Shown: positions 23,485-47,353, counted from the stretch's first letter. The stretch: DNA of 64,000 nt from Alphaproteobacteria bacterium (GCA_009377375.1 WHUE01000002.1:33350-97349), one strand, 5' to 3'. The notes: generated from the sequence alone by a model not told the origin. Numbers and translations: made by a program.

Positions 23485-23727
23485 CCGCCGGCAGGTCGGC
23501 GGGTTCCGCCCGGCCGGCCGCCTACGTGTAACGCGATGAAAAATAATCGAAAAAATGTGTCGGGATATTTTACAGTCGCGCCGGCCGTTAACCAGCGGCG
23601 ACTCGACAAGTCTTTGAAAAACAATGAATTAACCTGTTTGGCACGGTTCTTGCTTTAAAACCTGGTGCGACCTCAAGGACTGGAGTCTTCGGGGATTTTG
23701 GGCTATGTTGATGTGGGGACTGGGACG

Positions 23728-24606
23728 ATGCATGGAAAGCTGATTTCGGCGGTTGCCGGGCTTGCGCTCAGCATCGCGGCGGGGACGACGGCGGCCAAGG
23801 CCACCGAGATCACCTGGAATCTGGGCGGGAGCTGCGCCAGCGGCTATGCCTGCAATTCCACTGCGCGCACGTTCCTGGGCAGCGACGGCAGCACGACCGT
23901 CACCGCGAAGGCCTGGGGCCGCACCCAGAGTTACAACAATACCGAGTTCGAAAGCGCCTATCTCGGGCATTATTCCGGCAACGGCCTCGGCGTCACCAAC
24001 GACGAGGAGCCGAGCTACAGCCCGCATCACGCGGTCGACAATAACGATCGCTACGACATCGTCAGCTTCTTCTTCAGCGAGACGGTGGATATGCTGAGCG
24101 CATTCCTGGTGGCCTATGGCGACACCGACATCTCGGTGTGGATCAGCAATGTCGAGGTCATGCCGGATCTGACGGGCGAGACGATCACCGATCTCGACAA
24201 CATGTTCGGCGACCATTTCGACAACTACGGCGACTACAGCAACCGGACCGCCTATTTCGGCGCCGGCGGCGAGAGCGGGACCGAGGGCAACTTCCTGATC
24301 ATCGGGGCCAAGATCGGCAACAGCAACGACGACTTCAAGCTCAAGGCGCTGGCCGCCTCCTACACGGTCGAGGAACCGCCGGTTCCGGACACCGACGTTC
24401 CGGCCCCGGGCACGCTCTCCGTCTTCGGCCTCGGCGTGCTGGGCTTCATCGGGCTGCGCCGCCGCAACGCCCGTCGCGCGGACGGCCGCGCCGTCTCCAC
24501 CCGGACCCTGTTCGCCGGCCTGAAGGCCCTCGTCGCCCGCGCCAACAACGCCTTCGCGCTGGCCAGCGTCTCGAATGAGGGCTTCTTTCCGGTTCGCGCG
24601 CGCTGA
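23728..24606 (+). CDS. secreted protein with PEP-CTERM-like sorting signal (VPAP-TM-RRRNARR) near the C-terminus
   Basis: Signal peptide (MHGKLISAVAGLALSIAAGTTAA) and an Asp/Gly/Asn-rich body. VPAPGTLSVFGLGVLGFIGLRRRNARR matches the PEP-CTERM architecture (motif, TM, basic cluster) but is followed by about 40 more residues. AT-rich promoter region upstream. Confidence 0.6.
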   Translation: MHGKLISAVAGLALSIAAGTTAAKATEITWNLGGSCASGYACNSTARTFLGSDGSTTVTAKAWGRTQSYNNTEFESAYLGHYSGNGLGVTNDEEPSYSPHHAVDNNDRYDIVSFFFSETVDMLSAFLVAYGDTDISVWISNVEVMPDLTGETITDLDNMFGDHFDNYGDYSNRTAYFGAGGESGTEGNFLIIGAKIGNSNDDFKLKALAASYTVEEPPVPDTDVPAPGTLSVFGLGVLGFIGLRRRNARRADGRAVSTRTLFAGLKALVARANNAFALASVSNEGFFPVRAR

Positions 24607-24698: not shown

Positions 24699-25466
24699 TC
24701 AGAACAGCCCGCTGTCCCGCGCCGCGCGCCACAGCAGCCGGAGCGCCAGCGCCGTCACCACCACCTGGAAGACGACCCGGAAGCCCTTCTCCGGCATGCG
24801 CGACAGCAGCCGGCTGCCGATCCAGTTGCCGAGCGTGGCCGAGGCGATCATCGCCAGCATCAGCGGCAGGTACGCGTGCAGCGCCACTCCCAGCAGTCCG
24901 AACGCCGCCAGCTTGGCGGTATGGACGATGGTCATCAGCGCGGCGAAGGTGGCGGCGTGGTTGCGCCTGTCCGGGCTGGACCCGGCGACGAAGGGCGCGA
25001 TCAGCGTGCCGGTGGCGCTGACGAACATGCCGAGAAAGGTGGCGCCGAACCCGATCGCGGCGAAACGGTTGCGGTCGCCGCCCATCCGCGTCAGTCCCGG
25101 CATCCAGGTCATCACGATGATGAAGCCGCCCAGGATGGCCTGCAGCGTCGCGGTGGACAGGCTGACGAACACCTGCGCCCCCAGCGCGGCGCCCAGCACC
25201 GATCCGACGAGGAAGGGCAGCACCGTCCAGCGCATCACCCAGGACCACATGATCGCCACCCGGGTCGCCCCGGCGCCCATCTGCACCACCGTATGCACGG
25301 GGATCAGCACCGCCGGGGGAAACACCAGGCTGAGCAGCGACAGCAGCAGCAGCCCGCCGGCGGAGCCCGTCACGATCCCCAGCGCCGCCGTGCCCACCGG
25401 CGCCAGCGTCAGCGCGGCGAAGGTCAGCATCGAGACGTCGGGGACGCCGAGAAACGAGGTTTCCAT
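24699..25466 (-). CDS. TauE/SafE-family sulfite/anion exporter (DUF81)
   Basis: About 8 TM helices and the internal repeat typical of the TauE/SafE family. ATG at 25466; the ORF track starts at an upstream TTG. Confidence 0.75.
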   Translation of the reverse strand: METSFLGVPDVSMLTFAALTLAPVGTAALGIVTGSAGGLLLLSLLSLVFPPAVLIPVHTVVQMGAGATRVAIMWSWVMRWTVLPFLVGSVLGAALGAQVFVSLSTATLQAILGGFIIVMTWMPGLTRMGGDRNRFAAIGFGATFLGMFVSATGTLIAPFVAGSSPDRRNHAATFAALMTIVHTAKLAAFGLLGVALHAYLPLMLAMIASATLGNWIGSRLLSRMPEKGFRVVFQVVVTALALRLLWRAARDSGLF

Positions 25467-25650
25467 CAGCTCTGACCGGGTTGGGGGCAAATGGCGCGCA
25501 CCGCGCGGCTGCGGCGGGCCGTATAAGGTTTCTACCCCGCCCGCCGCGCCGCCGCCACCCGCCGACGCGCATTATCGAAAAACGGGACGTTTGAGCCCGA
25601 TTTTCGGCTTTGTGCGCCCCGAGGCGGCGGATAGACTGCGACAGACCGCC

Positions 25651-25675
25651 GGGCATAACCGGGCATAACCGGAAC
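25651..25675 (+). repeat. tandem 10-bp repeat (GGGCATAACC x2 plus a partial copy) upstream of tctC
   Basis: gggcataacc gggcataacc ggaaccgg sits about 30 bp upstream of the tctC ATG at 25706 and its AGGGAGG RBS. Confidence 0.4.
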
Positions 25676-25705
25676 CGGCTTCGCACTGTCTTCAGGGAGG
25701 AACCC

Positions 25706-26743
25706 ATGACCGTCACTACATTCCGCCGCGGCGCGGCGGCAGCCGTGCTTGCCGCCGCCATGCTGACCGCGGCCCCGGCCGGGGCCGACGCCGTCTCCGA
25801 TTTCTATACCGGCAAGCAGGTCACCTGGATCGTGTCCTACGGCGCGGGCGGCAGCTACGGCCGCTACACCCAGATCGGCGCACGCCATCTCGGCAGGTTC
25901 CTGCCGGGGAATCCGGCGGTCACGGTCCAGTACATGCCCGGCGCCGGCGGCATCAAGGCGACCAACTACCTCTACAACGCCGCCCCGAAGGACGGCGGCA
26001 TGCTTGGCACCGTGACCAAGGATCTCGCCCTCGAACAGGCGCTGCGTCCGGAAAAGGCCAAGTACGACGCCCGCAAGTTCAGTTGGGTCGGCAGCTTCGC
26101 CGAGTACATCGCGGTCATCGCGGTGTGGTCGGCTTCCGGCGTCAAGACCATTGAGGACGCGAAGACGCGCAGCGTCATCATGGCGACCAGCGGCCGCGGC
26201 CATCAGGGCTCGCAGCTCGCCGTGCTGCTGAACGAATACGCCGGCACCAGGTTCAGGCTGGTGACCGGCTACCGCGGCGCGAAGGACATGAACCTGGCGA
26301 TGGAGCAGGGTGAGGCGCAGATGCGCATCAGCTCGTGGAGCGGTTTCAAGAGCCAGCAGGGCGACTGGCTGCGCGACGGCAAGGCCGCGGTGCTGGCCCA
26401 GGGCGGCAGCAAGCGCCAGCCCGACCTGCAGAACGCCTCCCTGTTCATCGACCTGGTGAAGGACCCGGAAGGCCGCAAGGTGCTCGCCATCGTGGAATCC
26501 GGCTCCAGCGTCGGCTGGCCCGCGCTGATGCCGCCCGACGTGCCCGCCGACCGGCTTGCGGCGATGCGCAAGGCGTTCGATGAGATGACGAAGGACAAGG
26601 CCTTCATCGCCGAGGTCGAGAAGAGCAAGCTGGAGGTCGCCCCGAAATCCGGCGCGGAACTCGCCAAGGTCATCGACGAGGTGCTGTCGGCTGACGAGAA
26701 GGTGCTGGCCCGCGCCCGCGCCATCGCCGGCATCAAGCCGTAG
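25706..26743 (+). CDS. tripartite tricarboxylate transporter substrate-binding protein (TctC/Bug family), orphan
   Basis: Signal peptide; conserved Bug-family signature (VSYGAGGSYGRY..PGAGGIKATNY). No adjacent tctAB genes. Confidence 0.8.
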   Translation: MTVTTFRRGAAAAVLAAAMLTAAPAGADAVSDFYTGKQVTWIVSYGAGGSYGRYTQIGARHLGRFLPGNPAVTVQYMPGAGGIKATNYLYNAAPKDGGMLGTVTKDLALEQALRPEKAKYDARKFSWVGSFAEYIAVIAVWSASGVKTIEDAKTRSVIMATSGRGHQGSQLAVLLNEYAGTRFRLVTGYRGAKDMNLAMEQGEAQMRISSWSGFKSQQGDWLRDGKAAVLAQGGSKRQPDLQNASLFIDLVKDPEGRKVLAIVESGSSVGWPALMPPDVPADRLAAMRKAFDEMTKDKAFIAEVEKSKLEVAPKSGAELAKVIDEVLSADEKVLARARAIAGIKP

Positions 26744-26827
26744 CCGATCGATCCGGGCTGGCGGGCGGGGCCGCGCGTCTCCCGCCCGCAGCCGCTTCCG
26801 GCCGCAACGATCCACGGAGCCGTCCCC

Positions 26828-27811
26828 ATGGCCACGTCCTATCGCACCCCGCCCGAAACCATGAAGGCGGAGCTCGATGCGCTCTACGCCCGGCTCGACC
26901 CGCTTTATCTCGACCCCGGCTTCCGGGTGATGGACGTCTCCATCTGGAAGGAGCCGAAGAAGGCGCTGGAGCCCGCCATCTGGAAATGGTCGGAGGGACG
27001 CGAGGCGCTGTCGGAGCTCGCCCGCGTCATCGGCACCGAGCACGCGGAGCGCCGCAACCTGATCATGCGCAACCCGGCCGAGGGCCATGTCTACGGCACG
27101 CTGCGCACCATGATCAGCGCCTACCAGCTCATGCTGCCGGGCGAATTCGCCCGCTCGCACTGGCATTCGCCGCACGCGCTGAGGGTGATCCTCGAGGGCG
27201 CGGGCAGCTATACCGTCGTCAACGGCGTGCGCATCGACATGCATCCGGGCGACGTGGTGCTGACCCCCGGCGGCGACTGGCACTGGCACGGAGTGGACGG
27301 CAGCGCGCCCTGCGCCTGGCTCGACATCCTCGACCGGCCGCTGACCATCATGCTGGAGCCGCTGTTCCAGGACTATCATCCGGACGGGCACGAGCCGATG
27401 CGCAACGCCGACCCTGACTCGCCGCTGCTGTTTTCCTGGGCCGATACCGTGGCGCGGCTGGACGGCGCCGCGCGCGATGCCGGCGGCTGCTTCGGCGCGC
27501 GGATCGAGTTGGGCGGGGCCGCGCCCGCCCTGCCGACGCTGGCGCTGCACATGCAGCGCCTGGCGGCGGGGGAGAGGACGACGCGGTTCCGGTCCTCGGC
27601 GAACTACCTGTACTTGCCGCTGGAAGGCGAGGGGCGGTCGGTCGTCGACGGCAAGGTGCTGGACTGGGCGCGGGGCGATGTGTTCGTGGTGCCCTGCTGG
27701 CGTCCGGTGGAGCACGAGGCGTCGTCCGACGCGATCCTGTTCTCCGCCACCGACGAGCCGTTGCAGCGCGCCTGCGGCTATCTGCGCGAGGAGCGCGGCC
27801 TGCCGGGCTGA
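26828..27811 (+). CDS. bicupin protein, gentisate 1,2-dioxygenase-like
   Basis: Two cupin modules with metal-ligand-like His clusters (HWHSPHALRV.., GDWHWHG). Convergent with senA. Confidence 0.6.
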   Translation: MATSYRTPPETMKAELDALYARLDPLYLDPGFRVMDVSIWKEPKKALEPAIWKWSEGREALSELARVIGTEHAERRNLIMRNPAEGHVYGTLRTMISAYQLMLPGEFARSHWHSPHALRVILEGAGSYTVVNGVRIDMHPGDVVLTPGGDWHWHGVDGSAPCAWLDILDRPLTIMLEPLFQDYHPDGHEPMRNADPDSPLLFSWADTVARLDGAARDAGGCFGARIELGGAAPALPTLALHMQRLAAGERTTRFRSSANYLYLPLEGEGRSVVDGKVLDWARGDVFVVPCWRPVEHEASSDAILFSATDEPLQRACGYLREERGLPG

Positions 27812-27826
27812 AGGCCCCGGCGGCTC

Positions 27827-29131
27827 CTACAGGGCGCAGGTGCGGAACCCGGAGAAGATGTCCCTCCGCGTCGGCTCGAAGAAGTTGCGGTAGGTGCCGG
27901 TGACCATGCGGCTCCGCGTCGTCCAGGCACCGCCCCGCAGCACCATGGTCGACCCGAAAAGCGGCTCGGAATACTCTCTGTAATCGTCGGGCGCGAAGCC
28001 GGGGAACGGCCGGAACGTGTCCGACGTCCATTCCCAGGCGTTACCCAGCATCTGCCGGCAGCCCCAGGCGTTGTCCCCCGCCTCGTGCGCCGCCACGCTC
28101 ACGCAGCCCAGCGCGAACCCGTCGAGATTGGCGTGCGCGGCGGTGGGCGCCGCGTCTCCCCACGGGTAGCGCGTCTTGACGAGCGCGCCGTGCGCGCCGG
28201 GGCGCATGGTCGCCGCGAACTCCCACTCCGCCTCGCCCGGCAGGCGCCGGCCGGCCCAACGGCACCAGGCGTCGGCCTCGTACCAGTTGACGTGGATCGC
28301 CGGCTCGTCCTCCTCCAGCGGCATCCACCGGTCGAAGCGGCGCGCCCGCCAGCCGCCGCCGGATTCCGGCTTCCAGTAAACGGGATGCTCCGCCCCGGCC
28401 TGCCCGCGCCAGCGCCAGCCGTCCTCGGACCAGAGGGCGCGGCGCCGGTAGCCGCCGTCCTCGACGAATGCCGCGAATTCGCGGTTGGTCACCGGCGCCC
28501 GCGCCATGCGAAACGGCGCGACGGTCGCCTCATGGGTCCATTTCTCGTTGTCGAACAGGAAAGGCGCATCGGGGGCGGAGCCGAGCGGGAAGACGCCGCC
28601 CGGTATCGCGGCGTCTCCGGAAAGCCCGCCGCGCTCCGGCACATGAGACCCGCCCGACCCGTCCGCGGCGAATTCCGGCGTCGGATAGGCGAGCGTCTGG
28701 CGGGTCCAGAGGAACGCCTCGTCGTGCATGTCCTCGTGAAAGGTGGTGAACTGGTAGAGATAGCTGTCGCGCTCGTCCGCCATGCCGGCCGGCAAACGGT
28801 CGAGCAGGGTGTCCTGGACGCGCTGCATGTAGTCGAGCAGTTCGCCGAGAGGATAGAGCGGGAGGTCCCAGCGCGTCTCGTGCGCGATCGCGATCGAGTC
28901 GTAGAGCGCGTCGCCGCGTTCCAGCAACGGCGCATGGCCATGCTCGCGGCGCAGGATGAAGTGCTCGTGGAACCAGGCGACGTGACCGATCTCCCACAGC
29001 ATCGGATTGACGGCGGCGAGCTTCGGCCCGATAAGCTGATCTTGTGTCAGCCCGGCCAGAAGCTCTAACGTGCGCTGCCGCGCGCTTTCCATCATCGCGG
29101 CCAGCCGGTCTGCAGTTACGGGTGTCGTCAT
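27827..29131 (-). CDS. senA: EgtB-family sulfoxide/selenoxide synthase (DinB_2 plus FGE-sulfatase domains); by gene context selenoneine synthase SenA
   Basis: N-terminal DinB_2 metal-binding domain (WEIGHVAWFHEHF..HEDMHDE) and C-terminal FGE-like domain (NAWEWT..RGGAW). 434 aa. Placed next to a GT-like gene and selD, as in described sen clusters. Confidence 0.75.
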   Translation of the reverse strand: MTTPVTADRLAAMMESARQRTLELLAGLTQDQLIGPKLAAVNPMLWEIGHVAWFHEHFILRREHGHAPLLERGDALYDSIAIAHETRWDLPLYPLGELLDYMQRVQDTLLDRLPAGMADERDSYLYQFTTFHEDMHDEAFLWTRQTLAYPTPEFAADGSGGSHVPERGGLSGDAAIPGGVFPLGSAPDAPFLFDNEKWTHEATVAPFRMARAPVTNREFAAFVEDGGYRRRALWSEDGWRWRGQAGAEHPVYWKPESGGGWRARRFDRWMPLEEDEPAIHVNWYEADAWCRWAGRRLPGEAEWEFAATMRPGAHGALVKTRYPWGDAAPTAAHANLDGFALGCVSVAAHEAGDNAWGCRQMLGNAWEWTSDTFRPFPGFAPDDYREYSEPLFGSTMVLRGGAWTTRSRMVTGTYRNFFEPTRRDIFSGFRTCAL

Positions 29132-29154
29132 GTCCTCGCGCTCTTTGCCGTTCC

Positions 29155-30132
29155 GTGAAGATTAGTCTCGTCACCCCGGCCGGAAAACAGTCGCGCGCCG
29201 GAAATCGCACCACCGCGGTCCGCTGGGCGCGCATCCTGCGCGCCCTCGGCCAGCGCGTCGCGATCTCGGAAGCGGACGAGACCGTCGACGCCGACATGAT
29301 GGTGGCAGTTCATGCCTGGCGCAGCGCACCCTCTATCCGGGCCTTCGCCGAGCGCCATCCCTCACGGCCGCTGGTGGTGCTGCTCGCCGGCACCGACATC
29401 TACCGCTTCCAGCACAGCAATCCGAACGAGACGCTCGCCTCGATGGAGCGGGCGACGGCGCTGGTCTGCCTGCACGATCTCGTCCACCGCGACATCCCGC
29501 GCCGCTTCGCGTCGAAGCTTCGGGTCATCCGCCAGTCGGCGTCGCCGCTGAGCGCGCCGCGGGCGCCGTCGCGGCGCGCCTTCGAAGTCTGCGTCGCGGG
29601 CCATCTGCGCGAGGAGAAGGATTCGCTGCGCGCCGCGCTCGCCGCCCGCCTGGTGCCGGTGGACTCCCGCCTGCGCGTCGTCCATCTCGGCAAGGCGCAC
29701 GACGAGAGCTGGGCGCGCGCCGCGGCGGCGGAGATGGAGCGCAACCGCCGCTACCTCTGGCGCGGCGAGGTGCCCGGCTGGCAGGTGCGCCGCCAGTTCG
29801 CGCGCAGCCACGCCATGGTCATCAGCTCGGTGATGGAGGGCGGCGCGAACGTCGTCTCGGAAGCCGTTGTGGCCGGCCTGCCGGTGGTCGCATCGCATAT
29901 CGCCGGCAATGTGGGCCTGCTGGGCGACGATTATAACGGCTACTTCCCGCCGGGGGATACCGCCGCGCTGGCGGCGCTGCTGCGCCGGGCGGAGACCGAG
30001 CCCGCCTTCCTGCGCGGTCTCGCCGCGCAATGCCGCAGGCTGCAACCCCTGTTCCGGCCCGCGCGCGAGCAGGCCGCCTGGCGCGGCCTCATGGACGAGC
30101 TCGTCGGCGGCGCCTTCAGGGCCGGATGCTGA
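29155..30132 (+). CDS. senB: GT-B fold glycosyltransferase-like protein; by context selenosugar synthase SenB
   Basis: C-terminal GT1/GT4-like nucleotide-sugar binding region (HAMVISSVMEGGANVVSEAVVAGLPVVAS). Start is uncertain: the GTG at 29155 is only 23 bp from the divergent senA start; the ORF track begins at 29044 and overlaps senA. Confidence 0.6.
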   Translation: MKISLVTPAGKQSRAGNRTTAVRWARILRALGQRVAISEADETVDADMMVAVHAWRSAPSIRAFAERHPSRPLVVLLAGTDIYRFQHSNPNETLASMERATALVCLHDLVHRDIPRRFASKLRVIRQSASPLSAPRAPSRRAFEVCVAGHLREEKDSLRAALAARLVPVDSRLRVVHLGKAHDESWARAAAAEMERNRRYLWRGEVPGWQVRRQFARSHAMVISSVMEGGANVVSEAVVAGLPVVASHIAGNVGLLGDDYNGYFPPGDTAALAALLRRAETEPAFLRGLAAQCRRLQPLFRPAREQAAWRGLMDELVGGAFRAGC

Positions 30133-32383
30133 CCGGCTCCAGCCGATCGCTCCGGGGCCGGACGCATCCGATGATGGCCGCGCGGCTGTAGCCCATCGCC
30201 CGCAGCTCCTCGACACATCGCTCCGCCTCCGCCTCGGGCACGCTCGCCAGCAGCCCGCCGGCCGTCTGCGGGTCGAAGATCAGCGGGTAGCGCGGATCGC
30301 CGGCGGCCTCGGCCGGATTGGCGATCGCGCGCCGCAGCCGCAGATTCTGCGGCTGCAGCGAGCTCAGGATGCCGGCGCGCACCGTCTCCTCCGCGCCGTC
30401 GAGAAACGGAATGGCGCCGAGATCGAGCTCCACGTCCACCTCGGAGGCGCGGATCATCTCCACCAGGTGGCCGAGCAGCCCGAACCCGGTGACGTCGGTG
30501 CAGGCATGCGCGCCGTGCGCCATCAGGCATTCGGCGCCCTTGCGGTTCGACTGAACCATGGAGTCCAGCGCCGCCGCGATCCAGCGGCCCTTGGCCTTGT
30601 GGCGCATGTCGGCGGCAAACAGCGTGCCGGTGCCGAGCGGCTTGGTCAGCACCAGACGGTCGCCGGGCGCCATGCCCGCCTTGCGCATGACCCTGGCGCG
30701 GTCGATCAGCCCGTTGATCGCGAAGCCGAGCGTCAGCTCCACGCCTTCGCTGGTGTGCCCGCCGACCAGCGCCGCGCCGGCGTCGCGCAGAACCTCCATC
30801 GCGCCGGTCATCATCTGCGTCAGCGTGTCCTCGATCTTCTCCTCGATGCCGAAGGGGATGGTGGCCACCGCGAGCGCGGTCTGCGGCTCGGCGCCCATGG
30901 CGTATATGTCGCCCAGGCTGTGGTTGGCGGCGATCTTGCCGAACAGGTAGGGGTCGTCGATCATCGTGCGGAAGGAATCGACGGTGTGCACCATCGCCTT
31001 GCCCGGCGGCACCTCCACCACGGCCGCGTCGTCCGGCTCGTGCAGCCCGATCAGAACGTCCGCCCGCGGGACCGGCTCGAGGCCGCCCAGGGCGCGTCCC
31101 AGCACAGTGGCCCCCACCTTGGCGCCGCAGCCGCCGCAGCGCATCGCGATGGCGGAAATCTCCTTGATCGCCTCGGCGCTGGCGAGGCCGCGCGGCAGGG
31201 CGGCCGGCGTCTCCTCGGCCATGTCGGGCAGGTCGTTGTACTTGCGCATGAATCGCCGGTCGATCCAGTCCTTCCACAACCACACCCAGCGTCCCTTGAC
31301 CGACCAGTCCCCGCGCCCGGCGACGGCGTAGCGGTCGCCGGTGGTGACCAGGCTGAGAAACTTCTCCTGCGGACGGAACGGGCGGGGCGCGCGTCCCCGC
31401 AGCGCGCGGTCCAGGTTGCGGGCGAGCGGCTTGCCCTGGCGCACGGCGAACACGCCGGATTTGGGGCGCGGGTGGTTCACCATGGAAGCGACATCCCCCG
31501 CAGCGAACACGTCGGCATGCGAGACCGATTGCAGCGTGTCGGAGACCTTGATGAAGCCGTGCGCGTCCACCTCCAGCCCGGCTTCGCCCGGCCAGGACGG
31601 TGCGCCGGCCGCGGTGACCCAGAGTATCTCGTCGGCCTCGATTCCATCGCCGCTCTCCGTGCGCAGCCGGTTGCCGCTGACCTCGACCACGGGCTCGCCC
31701 GCGTGCACGCTGACGCCGCGCGCCCACAGGACCTGCTCGAAGGCGCGCCGCGCGCGCGCATTGTGGGTCGGCAGGATTTCGGGCGAGTCGCTGAACAGGT
31801 CGAACGCGATGTCGTCGGCGGTGCGGCCGGCCTCGCGGCGCAGCGTCGCCAGCCGATACTGGATGGCGAGCAGGATTTCGACCCCGCCGGCGCCGGCGCC
31901 GACGACGGCGATGCGCATCGGCCCGTCGTGGTGCAGGCTGCGCTCGGCCAGGGCCTCCCAGCGATCGAGAAAGCGGTTGATCGGCTTCACCGGGACGGCG
32001 GCCTCGGTCGCACCGGGTACGTCCGACGTCCGCGGGGCGGAACCTGTATTGATCGATAGCACGTCGTAGGGCACGGGCGGGCGGTTGTCGCAGAGAACGC
32101 GCTTGCCCGCCAGGTCGAGCGCCGTCACCTCGCTGTGATAGAAGCGCGCGCCGGCGAAGCGTGCGAGCGCGCCGAGATCGATATGGGCGTCGTCGAAGCT
32201 GTAATGCCCCGCCACGTAGCCGGGCAGCATGCCCGAATAGGGCGTGTGCACGTCGCGGCAGATCAGCGTGAGCCGGACGCCCGGCACCGGCTTCATGCCG
32301 AAACGTTTGAGAACGGCGACATGGCTGTGCCCGCCGCCGGCGAGAACGAGGTCCTTAACGATGGGAGTATTGTCGTTTTTCAT
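30116..32383 (-). CDS. selD: fusion protein: N-terminal FAD/NAD(P)-binding pyridine nucleotide-disulfide oxidoreductase domain plus C-terminal selenide, water dikinase SelD (SenC role)
   Basis: N-terminus has Rossmann GxGxxG motifs (LVLAGGGHSHVAV.., IAVVGAGAGGVE). The C-terminal half is SelD, with the active-site loop MRCGGCGAKVG (a Cys-type, not Sec-type, enzyme) and the AIR-synthase-like fold. 755 aa. Overlaps the 3' end of senB (convergent). Confidence 0.85.
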   Translation of the reverse strand: MKNDNTPIVKDLVLAGGGHSHVAVLKRFGMKPVPGVRLTLICRDVHTPYSGMLPGYVAGHYSFDDAHIDLGALARFAGARFYHSEVTALDLAGKRVLCDNRPPVPYDVLSINTGSAPRTSDVPGATEAAVPVKPINRFLDRWEALAERSLHHDGPMRIAVVGAGAGGVEILLAIQYRLATLRREAGRTADDIAFDLFSDSPEILPTHNARARRAFEQVLWARGVSVHAGEPVVEVSGNRLRTESGDGIEADEILWVTAAGAPSWPGEAGLEVDAHGFIKVSDTLQSVSHADVFAAGDVASMVNHPRPKSGVFAVRQGKPLARNLDRALRGRAPRPFRPQEKFLSLVTTGDRYAVAGRGDWSVKGRWVWLWKDWIDRRFMRKYNDLPDMAEETPAALPRGLASAEAIKEISAIAMRCGGCGAKVGATVLGRALGGLEPVPRADVLIGLHEPDDAAVVEVPPGKAMVHTVDSFRTMIDDPYLFGKIAANHSLGDIYAMGAEPQTALAVATIPFGIEEKIEDTLTQMMTGAMEVLRDAGAALVGGHTSEGVELTLGFAINGLIDRARVMRKAGMAPGDRLVLTKPLGTGTLFAADMRHKAKGRWIAAALDSMVQSNRKGAECLMAHGAHACTDVTGFGLLGHLVEMIRASEVDVELDLGAIPFLDGAEETVRAGILSSLQPQNLRLRRAIANPAEAAGDPRYPLIFDPQTAGGLLASVPEAEAERCVEELRAMGYSRAAIIGCVRPRSDRLEPVSIRP

Positions 32384-32387
32384 GGCC

Positions 32388-33875
32388 TCAACGGTGTTTC
32401 AGCGTCGTCTGCAGGCGGAGCCGCGCGCGGATGGCGCGGGAGATCGCGTCGACGCATATGTTCAGCATGGCGGTGATCAGGATGAGGAACAGCGCGCGGT
32501 CGAAACGCAAATCGGCAAAGGCACTGTCCACGTAAAAGCCCAGCGTCGCGATTCCGAGTATGCCGAGTATCGCCGTCTCGCGCAGGATCACCTCCCAGCG
32601 GTAGAATAGCAGAGCCATCATCGGCCGGTAGATGCGGGGCGAGACCTCGTATACGTAGCGGTCGATTCCGCGCGACGCATCGGGACGCAGCTTCACGGTC
32701 TCGGTGAACCGGCCGATCAGGTGGCCGATAATGGCCCCGTTGTGCAGCGACAGCGCCACTATGGCCGGCAGCATCGACGGCCCCCAAAGCTGCAGCAGGA
32801 CGAAGGCAAGAATATATTCCGGCGTCGAGCGGACAACGACGAGGAAGACGTGACCGGCCCCCCGCGCCCACCGGCCGAGCAGCAGGGGCGAGACCAGCGG
32901 GAAGAAGAACATCGTGAGCACGCCCGTCGCGACCAGGGCGACCATGGTGAGCTGAATCGTCGCGGCGGCCCCGGGCAGGGCCTGCTCGAAGAGCATCAGA
33001 TGCAGCCAGTCGCCGAGCGCCGCCAGCGTGTCGCCCCCCGGCGCGCGCAGCGGATAAGGAACGATGTCATGGGTGAAGAAGCGGAGCATATTGGCAGCGG
33101 AGACGGTGAGCCCCCAGGGCAGGATCGCCGCCGCCGCGACCAGCCAGACCGGCAGCAGCGGCTTCCGCATCCACAGCCGCATGCTGGCGATGACGACGTA
33201 GAACAGGATCAGCAGCGCCGAGACCTCGGAATAGCGCCCCTGGCTGAACGACGATTCGAGATGGAACCCGAGCGTCGGCAGCCCCACGAATCCGAGCACG
33301 GCGCTCGAGCGCAGCCCGCATTCGAGCCGGTACATCGAATAGGTCCGGAAATGCGCCCACGCATCCGGCAGGCGGGCGAACAGGAAGGTGGAGATGAGTC
33401 CGCTGCCGAGCGGGACGGCGCGCAGCGGAGCGGGGTCCGCCTCCTCGAGTATTTCCGCATAGACCTTGGCGATGATGCCGGCATAGGGGATGCCGATCGC
33501 GAGGATGCCGGTCAGCGGCGACAGGCCGAAGATCTGCAGGAAGATGAGCGCCCAGAACAGCTCGTGGATCGCCCGCACGAAGGCGCAGCCGGTGCGCACG
33601 ATCCGGCTGAAGAACAGCAGCGCGAGACCGAAGCCGAGCACGTTGCCGAACGCGACGCCGAGCAGCGCGAAGGCGAGCGTGTAGGCAAGCGCGCTCCCCA
33701 GATTGTCGGTGGCGTAGAAATCGGGCGTGACGACGCCCGCGAGCAGGCGCACCAGTTCCTGGTACGGATTGACCGTGGTGACGGCCAGATCGGCGAACAG
33801 CGCGCAGACCAGCGCGACCGCGACGAACGCGAGCGTCGTGCGGGCCAGCGGCGAGGCTTCGCGCAGGCTGGCCAT
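32388..33875 (-). CDS. fused tandem PhnE-like ABC transporter permease (two permease modules in one chain)
   Basis: 495 aa with about 12 TM helices and two PhnE-like permease repeats. Its stop lies 4 nt from the senC start and its ATG overlaps the upstream ATPase stop (TGATG). Confidence 0.75.
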   Translation of the reverse strand: MASLREASPLARTTLAFVAVALVCALFADLAVTTVNPYQELVRLLAGVVTPDFYATDNLGSALAYTLAFALLGVAFGNVLGFGLALLFFSRIVRTGCAFVRAIHELFWALIFLQIFGLSPLTGILAIGIPYAGIIAKVYAEILEEADPAPLRAVPLGSGLISTFLFARLPDAWAHFRTYSMYRLECGLRSSAVLGFVGLPTLGFHLESSFSQGRYSEVSALLILFYVVIASMRLWMRKPLLPVWLVAAAAILPWGLTVSAANMLRFFTHDIVPYPLRAPGGDTLAALGDWLHLMLFEQALPGAAATIQLTMVALVATGVLTMFFFPLVSPLLLGRWARGAGHVFLVVVRSTPEYILAFVLLQLWGPSMLPAIVALSLHNGAIIGHLIGRFTETVKLRPDASRGIDRYVYEVSPRIYRPMMALLFYRWEVILRETAILGILGIATLGFYVDSAFADLRFDRALFLILITAMLNICVDAISRAIRARLRLQTTLKHR

Positions 33876-34537
33876 CAGCCGGCCGGTCGGTACAGGTGAT
33901 CGAGGTCGTCCGGTTTCATGCCCGCGGCCGGCTCGTCGAGGACGATCCGCCCGTTCCTCAGCCCGACGAGCCGGTCGGCGAAGGCGATCGCCAGCGCCCG
34001 GTCGTGCATCGCGAGGACGACCGTGCGCTTTTCGCCGTTCATCGTCTCCAGAATCTCGCGCGCCTGGTGTTCGTCCACGGCGGAAACCGGCTCGTCGGCG
34101 ATGAGGATTTCGCCGGGGTGATAGAGCGCGCGGCCGACTGCCGTGCGCTGCTGCTGGCCTCCCGAGAGCTCGCCGACCGCGGCGAACAGCTTGTCCTCGA
34201 GGCGGAGTTGGGAGAGCACGGCCCCGACCTCCCTGACCTCCGCCGGGGCCGGGCGGACGAGATTGCGCAGGTTTCGCCACGTCGAATGCCGGTGCAGCCG
34301 TCCCATATAGACGTTGTGGAAGACGGTCAGCGACTGGACGAGGCCGAGTTCCTGCGGCACCAGCGCCGCACCGTTCCGGCAACGCTCGTAGGCGAGGCGC
34401 AGGAGCGTCGACTTGCCCGCCCCGCTCTCGCCGACGACCGCTACCTTCTCGCCGGGCTCGATCCTGAGCGTGATCCCCTCGAGGATCGCCGTGCCGCCGT
34501 AGCCGGCGGTCTCGTCGCGGAAGTCGATCAGCGCCAT
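33875..34537 (-). CDS. PhnC-like ABC transporter ATP-binding protein
   Basis: Walker A GESGAGKST, signature LSGGQQQR, Walker B LIADEP. Translationally coupled on both sides. Confidence 0.8.
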   Translation of the reverse strand: MALIDFRDETAGYGGTAILEGITLRIEPGEKVAVVGESGAGKSTLLRLAYERCRNGAALVPQELGLVQSLTVFHNVYMGRLHRHSTWRNLRNLVRPAPAEVREVGAVLSQLRLEDKLFAAVGELSGGQQQRTAVGRALYHPGEILIADEPVSAVDEHQAREILETMNGEKRTVVLAMHDRALAIAFADRLVGLRNGRIVLDEPAAGMKPDDLDHLYRPAG

Positions 34538-35424
34538 CAGTCGATCAGGCCGAGCGACCGCGCCGTCTTCCGGATCGGCTCGTAGTCCGAGTTCTCGGCC
34601 GGGATGAAAGCGGAACGGGGGAATGAGTCGAGCAGGTCGGGATCCTTCATCGAAAGCAGCGCAGCCTTTACCCTTTGCGCGAAGCCGTTGCCGTAGCGCT
34701 CGTCCACGTCGCCCCGGATGGTCCACTGATAGTCGGGATAGGGCGGGGTGCGCCAGATCACGCGTACGCGCTTCGGATCGATCTTGCCGTCCTTCAGCTC
34801 CCGCTCCCACACCGCGAAATTGACCGCGCCCACCTGGTACGCCCCGGTCTGGACCAGCGCGAGCGTTCGCGAGTGATCGCCGCTGAAGCCTACCCGGCTG
34901 AAGATTTCCTCCGGCGCCTTGCCGAAGGCTTCGCGGATATGGAACTCGGGCATCAGCCGGCCCGAGGTCGATCCCTTGGAGCCGAAGGTGAAGGTCTTGC
35001 CCGCCATCTCCTTCGGCAAGCTCTTCGATTCGGAGAGCCCGGTGCTCTCATGGGCGATGAAGTAGGTCACGAAGGCGCGATCCTCCGCACCCTGTGCGAG
35101 CGCCCGGGAACCCGGCACCATGGCGCGGGCCCGCACCCCGGAGAGCCCGCCGAACCAGGCGAGCTGAACCTGGCCGTTGCGGAACGCCGTCACCGCCGCG
35201 GCGTAGGACTTGACCGGGATGTAGCGCGTCTCGACGCCGAGCGTCCGCGCGAGGTAGCGCGCGACCTTGTCGAACCGCGTGCGCAGCTGGCTCGCGTCCT
35301 CATCGGGAATGGCCGTGAAGACAAACGGTTCCGCCTGCGCCGCGCCCGCTCCGGGCAGGAGCCCCGACAGCGCCCCGAGGACGGCGTATATCGCCGCGAC
35401 CGAACGAATTCTCATGGTCATCAT
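34537..35424 (-). CDS. PhnD/SsuA-like periplasmic substrate-binding protein (phosphonate/phosphite-type)
   Basis: Signal peptide (MRIRSVAAIYAVLGALSGLLPGAGAAQA), then a PhnD-family fold (FTAIPDED..YIPVKSYAA..FGSKGSTSG). First gene of the SBP-ATPase-permease-senC string. Confidence 0.75.
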   Translation of the reverse strand: MMTMRIRSVAAIYAVLGALSGLLPGAGAAQAEPFVFTAIPDEDASQLRTRFDKVARYLARTLGVETRYIPVKSYAAAVTAFRNGQVQLAWFGGLSGVRARAMVPGSRALAQGAEDRAFVTYFIAHESTGLSESKSLPKEMAGKTFTFGSKGSTSGRLMPEFHIREAFGKAPEEIFSRVGFSGDHSRTLALVQTGAYQVGAVNFAVWERELKDGKIDPKRVRVIWRTPPYPDYQWTIRGDVDERYGNGFAQRVKAALLSMKDPDLLDSFPRSAFIPAENSDYEPIRKTARSLGLID

Positions 35425-36125
35425 GGTGCACCTTTCCTGTCCGACAGCCGGATGTCCCCCGGGCCCGCGCAAAGGCGGCTCGCCGGCGAATTCCTGCAAA
35501 CCGGCACGACGGATGACATCCCGTGACCCGAACGTAGCGCCACAGGAGGAAACCCGCAAAGGGAGGGAGCACAGCCGTGGACGGCGCGGCAGGCGGCTTC
35601 GACGTTTTACGCGAACCCGGCAACCGGGTCATGGCGGCGGTGGGCGCCGCCGCTGCGCCCGCGCCGGCCCTCAGCGTCGTTCGGGCGACGGGCATAGCCG
35701 CATCGGCACCGGCTTCTGGAAGCCGGGAAGGCACACCGGCCGCATCTCGCATTGGGCCGGGGCGGCGGGTATGGCGGCGCCGGTTTCCGTCGCATCCGGG
35801 CCTTCGCCGTCGGCGGCATCGGCAAGCGCGGTGCGGCATTCTTCCGAGATTTCCGTCTCGGAGACGCGGAGCGCTTCGGCGATCGTGGGATCGTAGCGGC
35901 CGTTCTGAGCGGAGGATTCCGGGCCGCCGGCCGCGTATTGCCGAGTTTCGGCGCATCCCCCGACCCGTCGATCAGCCCGGCGCCCGCCATCAGGGCCAGC
36001 GGGAGACAGCCGGCGGTCGTGCCGGCGCACAGCAGCATCGCGAAGATTGCACGGAGGCCGGGCGCGACCGGCGGCGGGTGGCGCACCAGACCGGATGTCG
36101 CGCCCGGCGGCATCTTTCCGCGCCG

Positions 36126-36689
36126 TCAGCGGAGATGGCTGAGCCCGCGCCGTTCCGTCATCTCGCGCCAGATCGCGGCCATGTCGGGCTGCATGAGCCG
36201 CTTCCGGGCCCAGGGGAAGAAGGTCTGTTCCTCCCAGTCCATATGCTGGCGGACCAGCTCTTCGGCACGGATGAGATTGACCGAAAACGTGGCCGGCATG
36301 ATGGGAATGACGCCTCCCATCAGAGCGCACAGCCTCTCCTCGATATCCGTCACCGCGTGCCGTATGAGGTCGTGATTCTGCCCCAGCGTCGTCTGCATGC
36401 GGCGCGCCGTCTCCGTCGCCCCCTGGCGGGCCAGCAGCCGCGGCATCAGGGAGTATTCCTCGTCATCCACGCGGAGCGGCCATTCCTCCTTGAAGAACGA
36501 GAGCACGGAATGGGCGTAGCACTCCCTGCCGCGTTGCCAGAGATCGTCGGCCAGAATGGACATCATCCCCGCCACGATGCGAACTCTCTCCTGCTCCTGA
36601 AGCAGCAGATCTATCGGCTCCCTGCTCGTCGCCGCCGAGCGGCGGGAAGAGGTGCCGTCTTCGAAGCATTCCTGCTGGCCCGAAATCAT
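36126..36689 (-). CDS. hemerythrin-like (HHE cation-binding) domain protein
   Basis: Repeated H-x3-E motifs (HSVLSFFKEE, HAVTDIEE, HMDWEE). 187 aa. Confidence 0.5.
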   Translation of the reverse strand: MISGQQECFEDGTSSRRSAATSREPIDLLLQEQERVRIVAGMMSILADDLWQRGRECYAHSVLSFFKEEWPLRVDDEEYSLMPRLLARQGATETARRMQTTLGQNHDLIRHAVTDIEERLCALMGGVIPIMPATFSVNLIRAEELVRQHMDWEEQTFFPWARKRLMQPDMAAIWREMTERRGLSHLR

Positions 36690-41631: not shown

Positions 41632-41901
41632 GCGAATGGCCAGCGTTGCATGTCGTAGCGCGGGCGCGGCGATGTCTGACGCCGCGCGCCATACACGCCG
41701 GCCGGGGATGTCGCTCCGGCCGGCAGTGCGCTGTGACTGCCTCCCCGCCGGGGTCTGGGACGTCGCCCGCGTGCCGGAACCGCGTCGCCGCCGCCCCGAT
41801 ATGTTCTCAGAATGGTCACAGCCGCCATCGGCGCGCGCGGCTAGTGTTTGCGCCGACCGCCGCTCTTTCCCGTCGGGCACTCAAACACCGCGAAGGCGCA
41901 G

Positions 41902-43239: not shown

Positions 43240-43250
43240 CGCGACATCCG

Positions 43251-44264: not shown

Positions 44265-44347
44265 GGAACAGATCCCGCTGCCTCCCTTTAGTCGCAATCT
44301 AGGAGGTAGTCGATTTTAAGCTCCGGGCCAACCGGAATCCACGTGGC

Positions 44348-44453
44348 CCCTGAATGCTCACAGCAGATCACAGTTCGGCCACGGGTCCTTTCCGGACACC
44401 GCGCAGACCCTGAACGCTCACAGCTATCACAGTATGGCCACGGGCGCCTGTCG
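44348..44453 (+). promoter_or_regulatory. two about 46-bp imperfect direct repeats, each with paired (C)TCACAG elements, in the divergent GT2/rfbF promoter region
   Basis: cctgaatgCTCACAGcagaTCACAGttcggccacgggtcctttccgg (44348-44395) and cctgaacgCTCACAGctaTCACAGtatggccacgggcgcctgtcgg (44408-44453), spaced about 60 bp apart. Confidence 0.5.
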
Positions 44454-44626
44454 GCAAAATCCGATATCTACCTCTGACGAAAGCGCAACCGAATGTAACA
44501 CGCCATGTACGCACCGGGAGACGCATCACCAGATGGGAAGGGTCCGCACATGAAGGGAGTCGGCCGGCAGAAAAAGAATGTTTACGTGTTGATCAGAGGG
44601 CGAGCGCATCAAGGCGGAGCGGTGAC

Positions 44627-45400: not shown

Positions 45401-45494
45401 CGCACGCCCGCGCCCCCGGCGCCGGCCGGGAGTCCTGCCTGGGCGTCGCGAAGCCCCGGCCCCTCCCATTGTCTGAACGGATTGAGAGACTGTC

Positions 45495-47332: not shown

Positions 47333-47353
47333 ACCCGTCCCGCGCCGGCGGCG

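What the first reader, a model, noticed from the sequence alone, without database searches (positions are those of the whole stretch)
27827..32383. Selenoneine-type biosynthetic cluster: EgtB-like SenA, GT-like SenB and a SelD fusion (SenC)
Three adjacent genes fit the recently described bacterial selenoneine (sen) pathway. They encode a DinB_2 plus FGE-sulfatase (EgtB-fold) enzyme, a GT-B-fold glycosyltransferase-like protein divergent from it, and a selenophosphate synthetase (SelD; active-site loop CGGCGAKV, so a Cys-type enzyme). In that pathway SelD makes selenophosphate, SenB makes a selenosugar from UDP-GlcNAc, and SenA couples it to hercynine. I found no EgtD (histidine N-methyltransferase) or egtB/egtD pair in the window, so hercynine would come from elsewhere. 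I saw no SECIS-like signal or selA/selB; this SelD would serve small-molecule selenium metabolism, not selenoprotein synthesis. Distinguishing SenA from EgtB rests on gene context, not on residues I can read by eye.
Basis: partly seen in the sequence, partly recalled or inferred. Interest (0 to 1): 0.75.

Follow-up and report, generated by a model that had tools for sequence, protein, structure and literature searches.

The report
Selenoneine gene cluster with selenium importer
This is a typical bacterial gene cluster for making the selenium antioxidant selenoneine, joined to a likely selenium-uptake transporter; the pathway was described in 2022, so this is a clear new example and not a new kind of system.

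Summary
All pass NCBI's curated models: SenA 499 bits (cutoff 420; EgtB model fails, 338 vs 360), SenB 412 (cutoff 300), SelD 308 (cutoff 125), fused to the 'N-terminal-to-SelD' flavoprotein domain (498, cutoff 310).

The closest solved structure is OvsA (ovoselenol). I excluded that rival with the published 17-position active-site rule: the window protein reads xNEH--HRHMHYYNFFR, which fits SenA, not OvsA or EgtB. SenB and the SelD domain keep their catalytic residues.

The other three genes encode an ABC importer whose binding protein matches the 'putative selenate transporter' model, so the locus runs 27827-35424.

The same layout (importer-senC, reversed senB, senA) recurs in roughly 30 related, mostly alphaproteobacterial genomes. 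No egtD, tRNA-Sec, SECIS, selA or selB is in the window, whereas 21 of 80 relatives carry egtD next to senA. Hercynine must therefore come from elsewhere.

Verdict: interpretation supported; a new member of a known kind; modest interest.

The parts
34537..35424 (-). Periplasmic substrate-binding protein of an ABC importer (295 aa, PhnD-like); first gene of the operon.
   Evidence: Pfam Phosphonate-bd 203 bits. NCBIfam TIGR04553 'putative selenate ABC transporter substrate-binding protein' 395 bits, cutoff 250. ATG at 35424; its stop overlaps the next start by 1 nt (TGATG). Found beside senC in about 30 related loci.
33875..34537 (-). ABC transporter ATPase (220 aa, PhnC-like).
   Evidence: Pfam ABC_tran. 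Best NCBIfam match is phnC, 154 bits, below its cutoff of 266. TGATG overlaps at both ends. Conserved position in relatives.
32388..33875 (-). ABC transporter permease (495 aa, two PhnE-like halves).
   Evidence: NCBIfam PhnE 209 bits in two stretches, just under the cutoff of 217. The stop lies 4 nt before the senC ATG. Conserved position in relatives.
31199..32383 (-). SenC N-terminal domain (aa 1-395): FAD/NAD(P)H flavoprotein of the NDH-2 / pyridine-nucleotide-disulfide-oxidoreductase type. Predicted reductase that supplies reduced selenium to SelD.
   Evidence: Pfam Pyr_redox_2 94 bits. NCBIfam TIGR03169 'Nterm_to_SelD' 498 bits, cutoff 310. PDB sequence hits to NDH-2 enzymes at E about 1e-22. 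Both GxGxxG motifs are invariant and Cys98 is kept in 33/34 sequences (window plus 33 fused relatives). The role is predicted in PMC2432076 and is untested.
30116..31198 (-). SenC C-terminal domain (aa 396-755): selenophosphate synthetase SelD, Cys type.
   Evidence: TIGR00476 selD 308 bits, cutoff 125. The 'fusion_not_SelD' model TIGR04369 scores 487 bits, below its cutoff of 700. C419/K422, D452, D469, N487, D492 and D630 align with E. coli C17/K20, D51, D68, N87, D91 and D227 (the E. coli numbering is from my own knowledge).
29155..30132 (+). SenB, selenosugar synthase (Se-glycosyltransferase, GT-B fold), 325 aa with a GTG start. It lies on the opposite strand to senA and senC.
   Evidence: TIGR04348 SenB 412 bits, cutoff 300. 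182 bits to V. paradoxus SenB structures 8jjq/8fbx. N20, T23, H58, D86, Q131, R155, K158, E231 and E239 are conserved; V157 is E and H235 is N (EGGANV).
27827..29131 (-). SenA, selenoneine synthase (non-heme iron selenoxide synthase, DinB_2 + FGE-like fold), 434 aa. It is a 'long form' that keeps about 50 aa (313-362) absent from V. paradoxus SenA.
   Evidence: NF041186 SenA 499 bits, cutoff 420; EgtB TIGR03440 338 bits, below its cutoff of 360. Composite motif xNEH--HRHMHYYNFFR fits the SenA rule. 45% identical to VpSenA and 41% to OvsA and to EgtB-I.
29132..29154 (.). 23-bp spacer between the back-to-back senA and senB start codons.
   Evidence: Sequence read directly. The spacer length is conserved (median about 24 bp in 52 relatives) but the sequence is not. 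No sigma-70-like promoter was found.
30116..30132 (.). 17-bp tail-to-tail overlap of the senB and senC 3' ends.
   Evidence: ORF coordinates. Overlap or near-abutment recurs in relatives that lack an inserted gene.

Best explanation
The locus (27827-35424) is a selenoneine (sen) biosynthetic cluster joined to a selenium importer. I propose five steps.

1. A PhnCDE-like ABC importer takes up a selenium oxyanion, probably selenate or selenite. This is inferred from the family assignment only.
2. The NDH-2-like flavoprotein domain at the N-terminus of SenC reduces the imported selenium, or a thiol adduct of it, to the selenide level. This is inferred from a published prediction and is untested.
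3. The SelD domain of the same polypeptide converts selenide and ATP to selenophosphate. Support is strong: the curated model is passed and all catalytic residues are present.
4. SenB couples selenophosphate to a UDP-sugar (UDP-GlcNAc in the characterised enzyme) and hydrolyses the Se-P bond through Lys158, giving a 1-seleno-sugar. This rests on homology and conserved catalytic residues.
5. SenA uses Fe(II) and O2 to join the selenosugar to C2 of hercynine. The resulting selenoxide eliminates the sugar and leaves selenoneine. This rests on homology and the full SenA active-site motif.

Hercynine is not made by any gene in the window. It must come from an egtD elsewhere in the genome, or from uptake.
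For: - **Curated models passed.** SenA, SenB, selD, Nterm_to_SelD and the putative selenate-binding protein all pass their cutoffs, while the EgtB and 'fusion_not_SelD' models fail theirs.
- **SenA motif.** N42, E47, H50 / H84, R87 / H132, M135, H136 / Y384, Y387 / N416, F417, F418, R422 match the SenA rule published in PMC11030361. They include the R87-to-H and D416-to-F changes that Kayrouz et al. give as the SenA signature. 75 of the 81 sequences (window plus 80 relatives) fit the same rule.
- **SenB.** The catalytic Lys and the sugar- and UDP-binding residues are kept.
- **SelD.** The Cys/Lys loop and the Asp/Asn ligands are kept.
- **Operon structure.** The three transporter genes and senC are joined by 1-nt overlaps and a 4-nt gap.
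- **Synteny.** The order transporter-senC, reversed senB, senA recurs in roughly 30 of the 80 related loci.
- **Literature.** Sen clusters are often found with a putative selenate transporter, and only a small subset carry egtD. The NADH-dehydrogenase-like/SelD fusion is common and is predicted to supply SelD's substrate.
Against: - No egtD lies in the 64 kb window, so the hercynine supply is unverified.
- SenB differs from the characterised enzyme at two sugar-contacting residues, V157E and H235N, so the sugar donor could differ.
- The transporter's substrate and the flavoprotein domain's reaction have never been shown experimentally. TIGR04553 and TIGR03169 are both 'hypothetical equivalog' models.
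- The ATPase and permease score below the cutoffs of their nearest named models.
- senB is antisense between senC and senA, with no room for ordinary promoters in the 23-bp spacer. How senA and senB are transcribed is unknown.
Confidence: 0.8

Rival explanations
1. The locus makes only a selenosugar, or some other seleno-imidazole, as its end product. The organism would lack hercynine, or the variant SenB/SenA pair would use different substrates from the V. paradoxus enzymes.
For: No egtD in the window, although 21 of 80 relatives have it beside senA. SenB carries V157E and H235N at positions that contact the sugar's C2 acetyl and C4 groups. An ovsA mutant of M. vinifirmus accumulates SeGlcNAc.
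Against: SenA keeps the full hercynine-binding set Y387/N416/F417. In OvsA, these three residues alone were enough to switch the enzyme to hercynine and C2 chemistry. Most published sen clusters also lack a local egtD and draw hercynine from the egt pathway. Because the sugar is eliminated, a different sugar donor would not change the final product.
Confidence: 0.1
2. It is an ovoselenol (ovs) cluster. The EgtB-like enzyme would be OvsA, which selenylates C5 of free histidine, and that would explain the missing egtD.
For: The best-scoring solved structures are OvsA entries (8ux5 at 306 bits and 8u41 at 296 bits, against 244 for V. paradoxus SenA). ovs organisms usually lack egtD.
Against: The OvsA rule needs M, Q and A at the three histidine-binding positions. 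The window has Y387, N416 and F417. The top hit, 8ux5, is the OvsA-YNF mutant engineered to resemble SenA, and it outscores wild type by 10 bits. Per aligned residue the protein is closer to VpSenA (45%) than to OvsA (41%); OvsA's higher score comes from about 50 extra alignable residues. No OvsM-like methyltransferase is present: the only nearby methyltransferase (17570-18496) is generic and about 9 kb away. OvsA is almost confined to aquatic Gammaproteobacteria, whereas the relatives here are mainly alphaproteobacterial.
Confidence: 0.02
3. The EgtB-like gene is an ordinary sulfur-specific EgtB (ergothioneine), and its position next to a GT4 gene and selD is coincidental.
For: 41% identity to M. 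thermoresistibile EgtB-I over the full length, including the 50-aa segment missing from VpSenA. The EgtB model scores 338 bits, not far below its cutoff of 360.
Against: It fails the EgtB cutoff and passes SenA's. The thiol-binding residues S/D, R87, Q137, W415 and D416 are all replaced: N42/E47, H84, M135, F417, F418. The three-gene linkage is conserved across many genomes. No egtA, egtC, egtD or egtE is in the window.
Confidence: 0.02
4. The SelD fusion mainly serves selenocysteine or selenouridine synthesis encoded elsewhere, and only incidentally feeds SenB.
For: Mariotti et al. found selenoproteins and Sec machinery in genomes carrying NADH-dehydrogenase-like/SelD fusions. The genome outside the window was not examined.
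Against: senC overlaps senB and sits in an operon with a transporter that recurs next to sen genes in roughly 30 related genomes. The window has no selA, selB, tRNA-Sec or SECIS. The two roles are not mutually exclusive.
Confidence: 0.05

Closest known systems
senABC selenoneine cluster of Variovorax paradoxus (Kayrouz and Seyedsayamdost 2022; bioRxiv 10.1101/2022.04.13.486033)
   Same: The same three enzyme families, each passing its curated NCBIfam model. The same SenA active-site motif and the same SenB catalytic Lys and sugar/UDP ligands. A putative selenate transporter nearby and egtD absent from the cluster, as in many published examples.
   Different: - SenC here carries an N-terminal NDH-2-like flavoprotein domain (755 aa). 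The residue numbers cited for V. paradoxus SenC (A56 to H243) suggest that enzyme is a plain SelD.
- SenA here is a long form with about 50 extra residues (aa 313-362) that EgtB-I and OvsA also have.
- SenB has E in place of V157 and N in place of H235.
- senB is on the opposite strand, back to back with senA and tail to tail with senC.
OvsA / ovoselenol cluster of Halomonas utahensis and Marinobacter (Kayrouz et al. 2024, PMC11030361)
   Same: It uses the same senB/senC selenosugar cassette and an EgtB-fold selenoxide synthase of similar length. OvsA gives the highest bit score among solved structures. N/E/H, H/R, HxH, the catalytic Tyr and the final Arg are shared.
   Different: The three substrate-selecting residues are Y/N/F here and M/Q/A in OvsA. 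There is no OvsM methyltransferase. The taxonomic range differs.
EgtB type I (Mycobacterium thermoresistibile, PDB 4X8B/4X8D), ergothioneine sulfoxide synthase
   Same: The same DinB_2 + FGE-like fold, the 3-His iron site, the catalytic Tyr and the hercynine-binding Tyr/Asn. 41% identity across the full length.
   Different: The thiol-donor pocket is replaced (S to N, D to E, R87 to H, Q137 to M, W415 to F, D416 to F). The protein scores below the EgtB cutoff. Its neighbours are senB and senC, not egtA/C/D/E.
NADH-dehydrogenase-like/SelD fusion proteins (Zhang et al. 2008, PMC2432076; Mariotti et al. 2015, PMC4561486; NCBIfam TIGR03169)
   Same: An N-terminal flavoprotein fused to a Cys-type SelD, exactly the architecture described as the commonest SelD fusion.
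   Different: Those papers linked the fusion to the known Sec and SeU uses. Here, and in about 35 related genomes, it is embedded in a sen cluster and usually co-transcribed with an ABC importer.

Membership tests
SenA (selenoneine synthase) | DinB_2 + FGE-sulfatase (EgtB-fold) architecture. | tested here: met
   Pfam DinB_2 (aa 14-121) and FGE-sulfatase (aa 176-431).
SenA (selenoneine synthase) | Score above the curated cutoff of NCBIfam NF041186 (equivalog) and below that of the EgtB model. | tested here: met
   SenA 499.2 bits against 420; EgtB TIGR03440 338.4 bits against 360.
SenA (selenoneine synthase) | Composite active-site motif xNEH--HRHxHYYN(F/Y)(F/Y)R (PMC11030361). | tested here: met
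   The window reads xNEH--HRHMHYYNFFR, mapped through alignments to 4x8b, 8u41 and 8k5i. 75 of the 81 sequences (window plus 80 relatives) also fit the rule.
SenA (selenoneine synthase) | EgtB Arg87/Asp416 thiol-binding pair replaced by His and Phe/Tyr. | tested here: met
   H84 and F418.
SenA (selenoneine synthase) | Clustered with senB (TIGR04348) and selD. | tested here: met
   senB is 23 bp away, and senC overlaps senB.
SenA (selenoneine synthase) | Catalyses C2 selenylation of hercynine with a selenosugar. | not testable with these tools
   Requires enzymology.
OvsA (ovoselenol synthase) | Composite motif xNEH--HRHxHYMQAYR (Met, Gln, Ala at the histidine-binding positions). | tested here: not met
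   The window has Y387, N416 and F417 at those positions.
OvsA (ovoselenol synthase) | Co-occurring OvsM N-pi-methyltransferase. | tested here: not met
   None found in the window. The only nearby methyltransferase (17570-18496) has weak, generic hits only. The rest of the genome was not examined.
EgtB type I | Composite motif xSDH--RRHQHYYNWDR and a score above the TIGR03440 cutoff. | tested here: not met
   Six of the 14 specified residues in the rule differ, and the score of 338 bits is below the cutoff of 360.
SenB (selenosugar synthase, TIGR04348) | Score above the curated TIGR04348 cutoff; GT-B/GT4 fold. | tested here: met
   412.3 bits against 300. Pfam Glycos_transf_1. 182 bits to the SenB structures.
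SenB (selenosugar synthase, TIGR04348) | Catalytic Lys158 (Se-P cleavage), the N20/T23/E231 sugar triad and the E239 ribose ligand. | tested here: met
   All are conserved in the window and in all 60 aligned SenB sequences (window plus 59 relatives).
SenB (selenosugar synthase, TIGR04348) | 'EGGAHV' motif as written for the V. paradoxus, Comamonadaceae and Ramlibacter enzymes. | tested here: inconclusive
   The window has EGGANV (H235N), as do all 60 aligned SenB sequences. V157 is E in 52 of the 60. Mutating H235 only partly lowered activity in the published enzyme.
SelD (selenophosphate synthetase) / SenC | Score above the TIGR00476 cutoff; N-terminal Cys(Sec)-x-x-Lys loop; Asp/Asn ATP-metal ligands. 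| tested here: met
   307.6 bits against 125. C419/K422, D452, D469, N487, D492 and D630 align with the E. coli catalytic residues.
Nterm_to_SelD flavoprotein domain (TIGR03169) | Score above the cutoff; two dinucleotide-binding GxGxxG motifs; located N-terminal to SelD. | tested here: met
   498.5 bits against 310. G16/G18 and G162/G164/G166/G167 are invariant.
Nterm_to_SelD flavoprotein domain (TIGR03169) | Reduces a selenium compound to supply SelD. | not testable with these tools
   A prediction only (PMC2432076).
Putative selenate ABC transporter (TIGR04553 binding protein) | Binding protein above the curated cutoff, with adjacent ATPase and permease genes. | tested here: met
   394.8 bits against 250. 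The ATPase and permease genes overlap their neighbours by 1 nt. The substrate has not been shown experimentally; the model is a 'hypothetical equivalog'.

The most novel reading that the evidence does not exclude
This sen subtype is found mainly in Alphaproteobacteria. It combines a long-form SenA, a SenB with E157/N235, a flavoprotein-SelD fusion and a co-transcribed importer. It could be a self-contained route from selenate to selenoneine. On this reading the NDH-2-like domain would be a dedicated selenium reductase that passes selenide to SelD through the near-invariant Cys98, and the variant SenB would use a different UDP-sugar from the V. paradoxus enzyme. In a genome with no egtD, the end product might be a selenosugar or an undescribed seleno-imidazole.
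Probability: 0.12. Interest if true: 0.5.

Novelty: new member of a known kind. Interest (0 to 1): 0.25.

Why it matters
Selenoneine is a potent selenium antioxidant, and its bacterial pathway was worked out only in 2022. This locus adds little that is conceptually new. It is, however, a clean example of a widespread and uncharacterised subtype. In this subtype, uptake, a predicted reduction step and selenium activation are all linked in one operon, and the C-Se bond-forming enzyme keeps an EgtB-like segment that the only crystallised SenA lacks.

The subtype would be a good system for testing two open points: what the flavoprotein domain fused to SelD actually reduces, and what the 'putative selenate' ABC transporter carries. 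It also shows that raw similarity to solved structures (best hit OvsA) can mislead, whereas the published active-site motif gives the right assignment.

Tried and rejected
- **Ovoselenol (OvsA).** Raised by the PDB ranking. Rejected by the composite motif, by per-residue identity and by the lack of OvsM.
- **Sulfur EgtB.** Rejected by model cutoffs and pocket residues.
- **Exact-sequence look-up of SenA in public assemblies.** Not on record.
- **Source organism.** Not identified. The nearest species representative is an uncultured Hyphomicrobiales MAG at 83% SenA identity.
- **Megablast of 26000-36000 against plasmids.** No match.
- **egtD.** Pfam scan of 56 predicted ORFs and tblastn with five EgtD probes: nothing in the window. 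The first probe was a sequence recalled from memory. It was validated because its hits in L061 and L056 pass the EgtD model TIGR03438.
- **Extra gene between senC and senB in some relatives.** Suspected to be egtD, but it is a panE/apbA-type 2-dehydropantoate reductase homologue and is absent from the window.
- **Conserved operator in the senA/senB spacer, or a conserved element upstream of the transporter.** The spacer is conserved in length only, and there is no meaningful upstream conservation. No Rfam family. No sigma-70-like promoter, and the terminator-like sites (2) were fewer than the 3.9 expected from shuffles.
- **Neighbours as cluster members.** The cupin dioxygenase (26828-27811), TauE (24699-25490), the TctC-like protein (25610-26743) and the hemerythrin (36126-36689) are not conserved next to sen genes in any of the 80 loci, so I exclude them.
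- **Not run.** The large homology searches, structure prediction and fold search, because curated models, solved-structure alignments and synteny had already settled the question.

Full report
**Observation.** The three ORFs are real and lie at the stated coordinates.
- 27827-29131(-), 434 aa.
- 29044-30132(+), whose conserved N-terminus fixes the start at the GTG at 29155 (325 aa).
- 30116-32383(-), 755 aa.

Their third-position GC (0.86-0.91) is that of genuine genes in this 69% GC window. Pfam gives DinB_2 + FGE-sulfatase, Glycos_transf_1, and Pyr_redox_2 + AIRS + AIRS_C respectively. The loop RCGGCGAKV is present.

**Family assignment.** NCBI's curated equivalog models decide the main question.

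| Protein | Model | Bits | Cutoff |
|---|---|---|---|
| EgtB-like | SenA NF041186 | 499 | 420 |
| EgtB-like | EgtB TIGR03440 | 338 | 360 |
| Glycosyltransferase | SenB TIGR04348 | 412 | 300 |
| 755-aa protein | selD TIGR00476 | 308 | 125 |
| 755-aa protein | Nterm_to_SelD TIGR03169 | 498 | 310 |
| 755-aa protein | SelD-like-but-not-SelD fusion TIGR04369 | 487 | 700 |

Among solved structures the best hits are OvsA, the ovoselenol selenoxide synthase (8ux5 at 306 bits, 8u41 at 296). These score ahead of EgtB-I (275) and V. paradoxus SenA (244, in two pieces). Ovoselenol clusters also use senB and senC and typically lack egtD, so this needed a real test.

Kayrouz et al. publish a 17-position composite active-site rule for each subfamily. 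I mapped those positions through the residue-level alignments to 4x8b, 8u41 and 8k5i. The window protein reads N42, E47, H50 / H84, R87 / H132, M135, H136 / Y384, Y387 / N416, F417, F418, R422, that is xNEH--HRHMHYYNFFR.
- This satisfies the SenA rule xNEH--HRHxHYYN(F/Y)(F/Y)R.
- It fails the OvsA rule, which needs M, Q and A where the window has Y387, N416 and F417.
- It fails the EgtB-I rule, which needs S, D, R, Q, W and D where the window has N, E, H, M, F and F.

The top hit, 8ux5, is the OvsA-M401Y/Q430N/A431F mutant engineered to mimic SenA. It beats wild type by 10 bits for that reason. The R87-to-H and D416-to-F changes are the SenA signature named in the original paper.

OvsA outscores V. 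paradoxus SenA only because VpSenA lacks about 50 residues (window aa 313-362) that the window protein, OvsA and EgtB-I all keep. Per aligned residue the window protein is 45% identical to VpSenA and 41% to each of the others. It is therefore a long-form SenA.

**SenB and SelD residues.** Against V. paradoxus SenB and its mutagenesis data, the window protein keeps N20, T23, H58, D86, Q131, R155, the catalytic K158, E231 and E239. It differs at two sugar-contacting residues: V157 is E, and H235 is N, giving EGGANV in place of EGGAHV. Both substitutions are the norm in this clade: N235 in all 60 aligned SenB sequences (window plus 59 relatives) and E157 in 52 of the 60.

The SelD domain aligns C419/K422, D452, D469, N487, D492 and D630 with the E. 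coli catalytic residues C17/K20, D51, D68, N87, D91 and D227 (the E. coli numbering is from my own knowledge). The N-terminal domain resembles NDH-2-type flavoproteins. Both dinucleotide-binding motifs are invariant, and Cys98 is present in 33 of 34 sequences (window plus 33 fused relatives).

Immediately upstream of senC on the same strand lie three genes:
- a binding protein (34537-35424),
- an ABC ATPase (33875-34537),
- a double PhnE-like permease (32388-33875).

The binding protein passes the 'putative selenate ABC transporter' model TIGR04553 (395 bits, cutoff 250). The three transporter genes overlap by single nucleotides (TGATG), and senC starts 4 nt after the permease stop. Uptake and selenium activation are thus encoded by one operon. 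Kayrouz et al. had already noted a putative selenate transporter near many sen clusters.

**Relatives.** A scan of one genome per species found more than 570 relatives of the SenA-like protein. The best was 83% identical, from an uncultured Hyphomicrobiales MAG, so the source genome itself is not among the representatives. I mapped the window's proteins onto the best 80 loci.
- Roughly 30 genomes, mostly Alphaproteobacteria and Rhodospirillales, share the order binding protein-ATPase-permease-fused senC, then senB on the opposite strand, then senA.
- Methylobacterium species have an unfused SelD instead.
- The odd geometry is conserved. The senA and senB start codons lie back to back, with a median of about 24 bp between them in 52 loci. 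The spacer sequence is not conserved. senB and senC overlap or abut tail to tail wherever no gene is inserted between them.
- 75 of the 81 SenA sequences (window plus 80 relatives) satisfy the SenA rule.

**Hercynine supply.** No ORF in the window matches EgtD (Pfam scans of 56 ORFs). tblastn with five EgtD probes finds nothing better than E = 0.15. The same probes find egtD next to senA in 21 of the 80 relatives, and two of those hits pass the EgtD equivalog model (405 and 371 bits, cutoff 291). The search was therefore sensitive enough, and the window truly lacks egtD. This is normal for sen clusters, which usually draw hercynine from the separate egt pathway. The rest of the genome could not be examined.

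**Selenoprotein machinery.** The window has one tRNA (Glu), no other Rfam family, and no SelA or SelB domain. The inference that this SelD serves small-molecule metabolism is reasonable from the operon context. It is not proven, because genomes with this fusion often also have Sec machinery.

**Mechanism.** I propose five steps:
1. import of a selenium oxyanion (inferred);
2. reduction by the flavoprotein domain (a published prediction; untested);
3. selenophosphate synthesis by the SelD domain (strongly supported);
4. selenosugar formation by SenB, with Lys158-assisted Se-P cleavage (homology plus conserved residues);
5. Fe/O2-dependent coupling to C2 of hercynine by SenA, with spontaneous loss of the sugar (homology plus the full motif).

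How senA and senB are transcribed with only 23 bp between them, and with senB antisense to any read-through from senC, is unexplained.

**Comparison and verdict.** The locus is a member of the sen selenoneine cluster family on every feature I could test. Its differences from the characterised V. paradoxus system are the fused SenC, the long-form SenA, two SenB pocket substitutions and the strand arrangement. All of these are shared with dozens of sequenced genomes. The fusion itself has been known since 2008.

The finding is a new member of a known kind, and its interest is modest. The main value lies in pointing to an uncharacterised but common subtype suited to testing the reductase and transporter predictions.

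Noticed in passing
window 29132-29154, and the equivalent spacer in 52 related loci: The senA and senB start codons lie back to back, 23 bp apart. The length is conserved (median about 24 bp) but the sequence is not. There is no room for ordinary divergent promoters, so each promoter must lie inside the other gene, or senA is read through from senC antisense to senB.
   Followed up: partly
window 30116-30132: The senB and senC 3' ends overlap tail to tail by 17 bp. Overlap or near-abutment recurs in relatives that have no inserted gene. Convergent transcription could couple or interfere with expression of the two genes.
   Followed up: partly
L004 8102-9055 (also L009, L013, L015, L016, L018, L019, L021, L033): About ten related loci carry an extra gene of about 0.95 kb between senC and senB. 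It encodes a 2-dehydropantoate 2-reductase (PanE/ApbA)-family oxidoreductase (TIGR00745 246 bits, cutoff 141). The window lacks it, and its role in a sen cluster is unknown.
   Followed up: partly
L045, L049, L054, L056, L060, L063, L071, L080 (NC10 / Methylomirabilis MAGs): egtD lies directly upstream of a gene for a SenA-like protein that carries the SenA composite motif or a near-variant of it. No senB or senC is detectable in the flanking sequence held (up to 10 kb each side). The selenosugar genes are either elsewhere or these enzymes use another donor.
   Followed up: no
window 31199-32383 (SenC aa 1-395): In the flavoprotein domain, Cys98 is kept in 33 of 34 sequences (window plus 33 fused relatives) and Cys42 in 27 of 34. 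A 'TPYSGMLPG' stretch (aa 47-55) is invariant. A single conserved cysteine could carry selenium to the SelD domain.
   Followed up: partly
window 865-7478: Carbon-phosphorus lyase genes: DUF1045 (865-1632, minus strand), PhnG, PhnH, PhnI, PhnJ (1778-4841), and a PhnM-like amidohydrolase (6066-7478). The window therefore has genuine phosphonate-catabolism genes as well as the PhnCDE-like transporter in the sen operon.
   Followed up: no
window 41848-53322: A polysaccharide or deoxysugar cluster: DRL-type oxidoreductase, GT2, nucleotidyltransferase, C-methyltransferase, dTDP-sugar 3,5-epimerase, flippase, FkbH-like protein and MBOAT acyltransferase. It lies within a broader stretch of lower GC (0.61-0.69 over 40-54 kb, lowest at 40-46 kb, against about 0.70 upstream), which suggests horizontal acquisition.
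   Followed up: no
window 11046-13085 (+) and 57027-59306 (+): Two large ORFs (679 and 759 aa) with coding-like GC3 but no Pfam family. The first has weak kinase-like matches (LanL, MAD6; E 1e-7 to 1e-9). The second matches nothing.
   Followed up: no
window 23665-24606 (+): Similar to the exosortase-dependent surface protein XDP1 (120 bits, just under the cutoff of 125). This hints at a PEP-CTERM/exosortase system in the genome.
   Followed up: no
window 24699-27811: Next to senA lie a TauE/SafE-family anion exporter, a TctC-like binding protein and a gentisate-dioxygenase-like bicupin. None is conserved next to sen genes in the 80 relatives, so they are probably unrelated neighbours.
   Followed up: yes
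window 61033-62513: A PEP-mutase-family gene (61033-61896) overlaps the start of a Cu/Zn superoxide dismutase gene (61893-62513).
   Followed up: no
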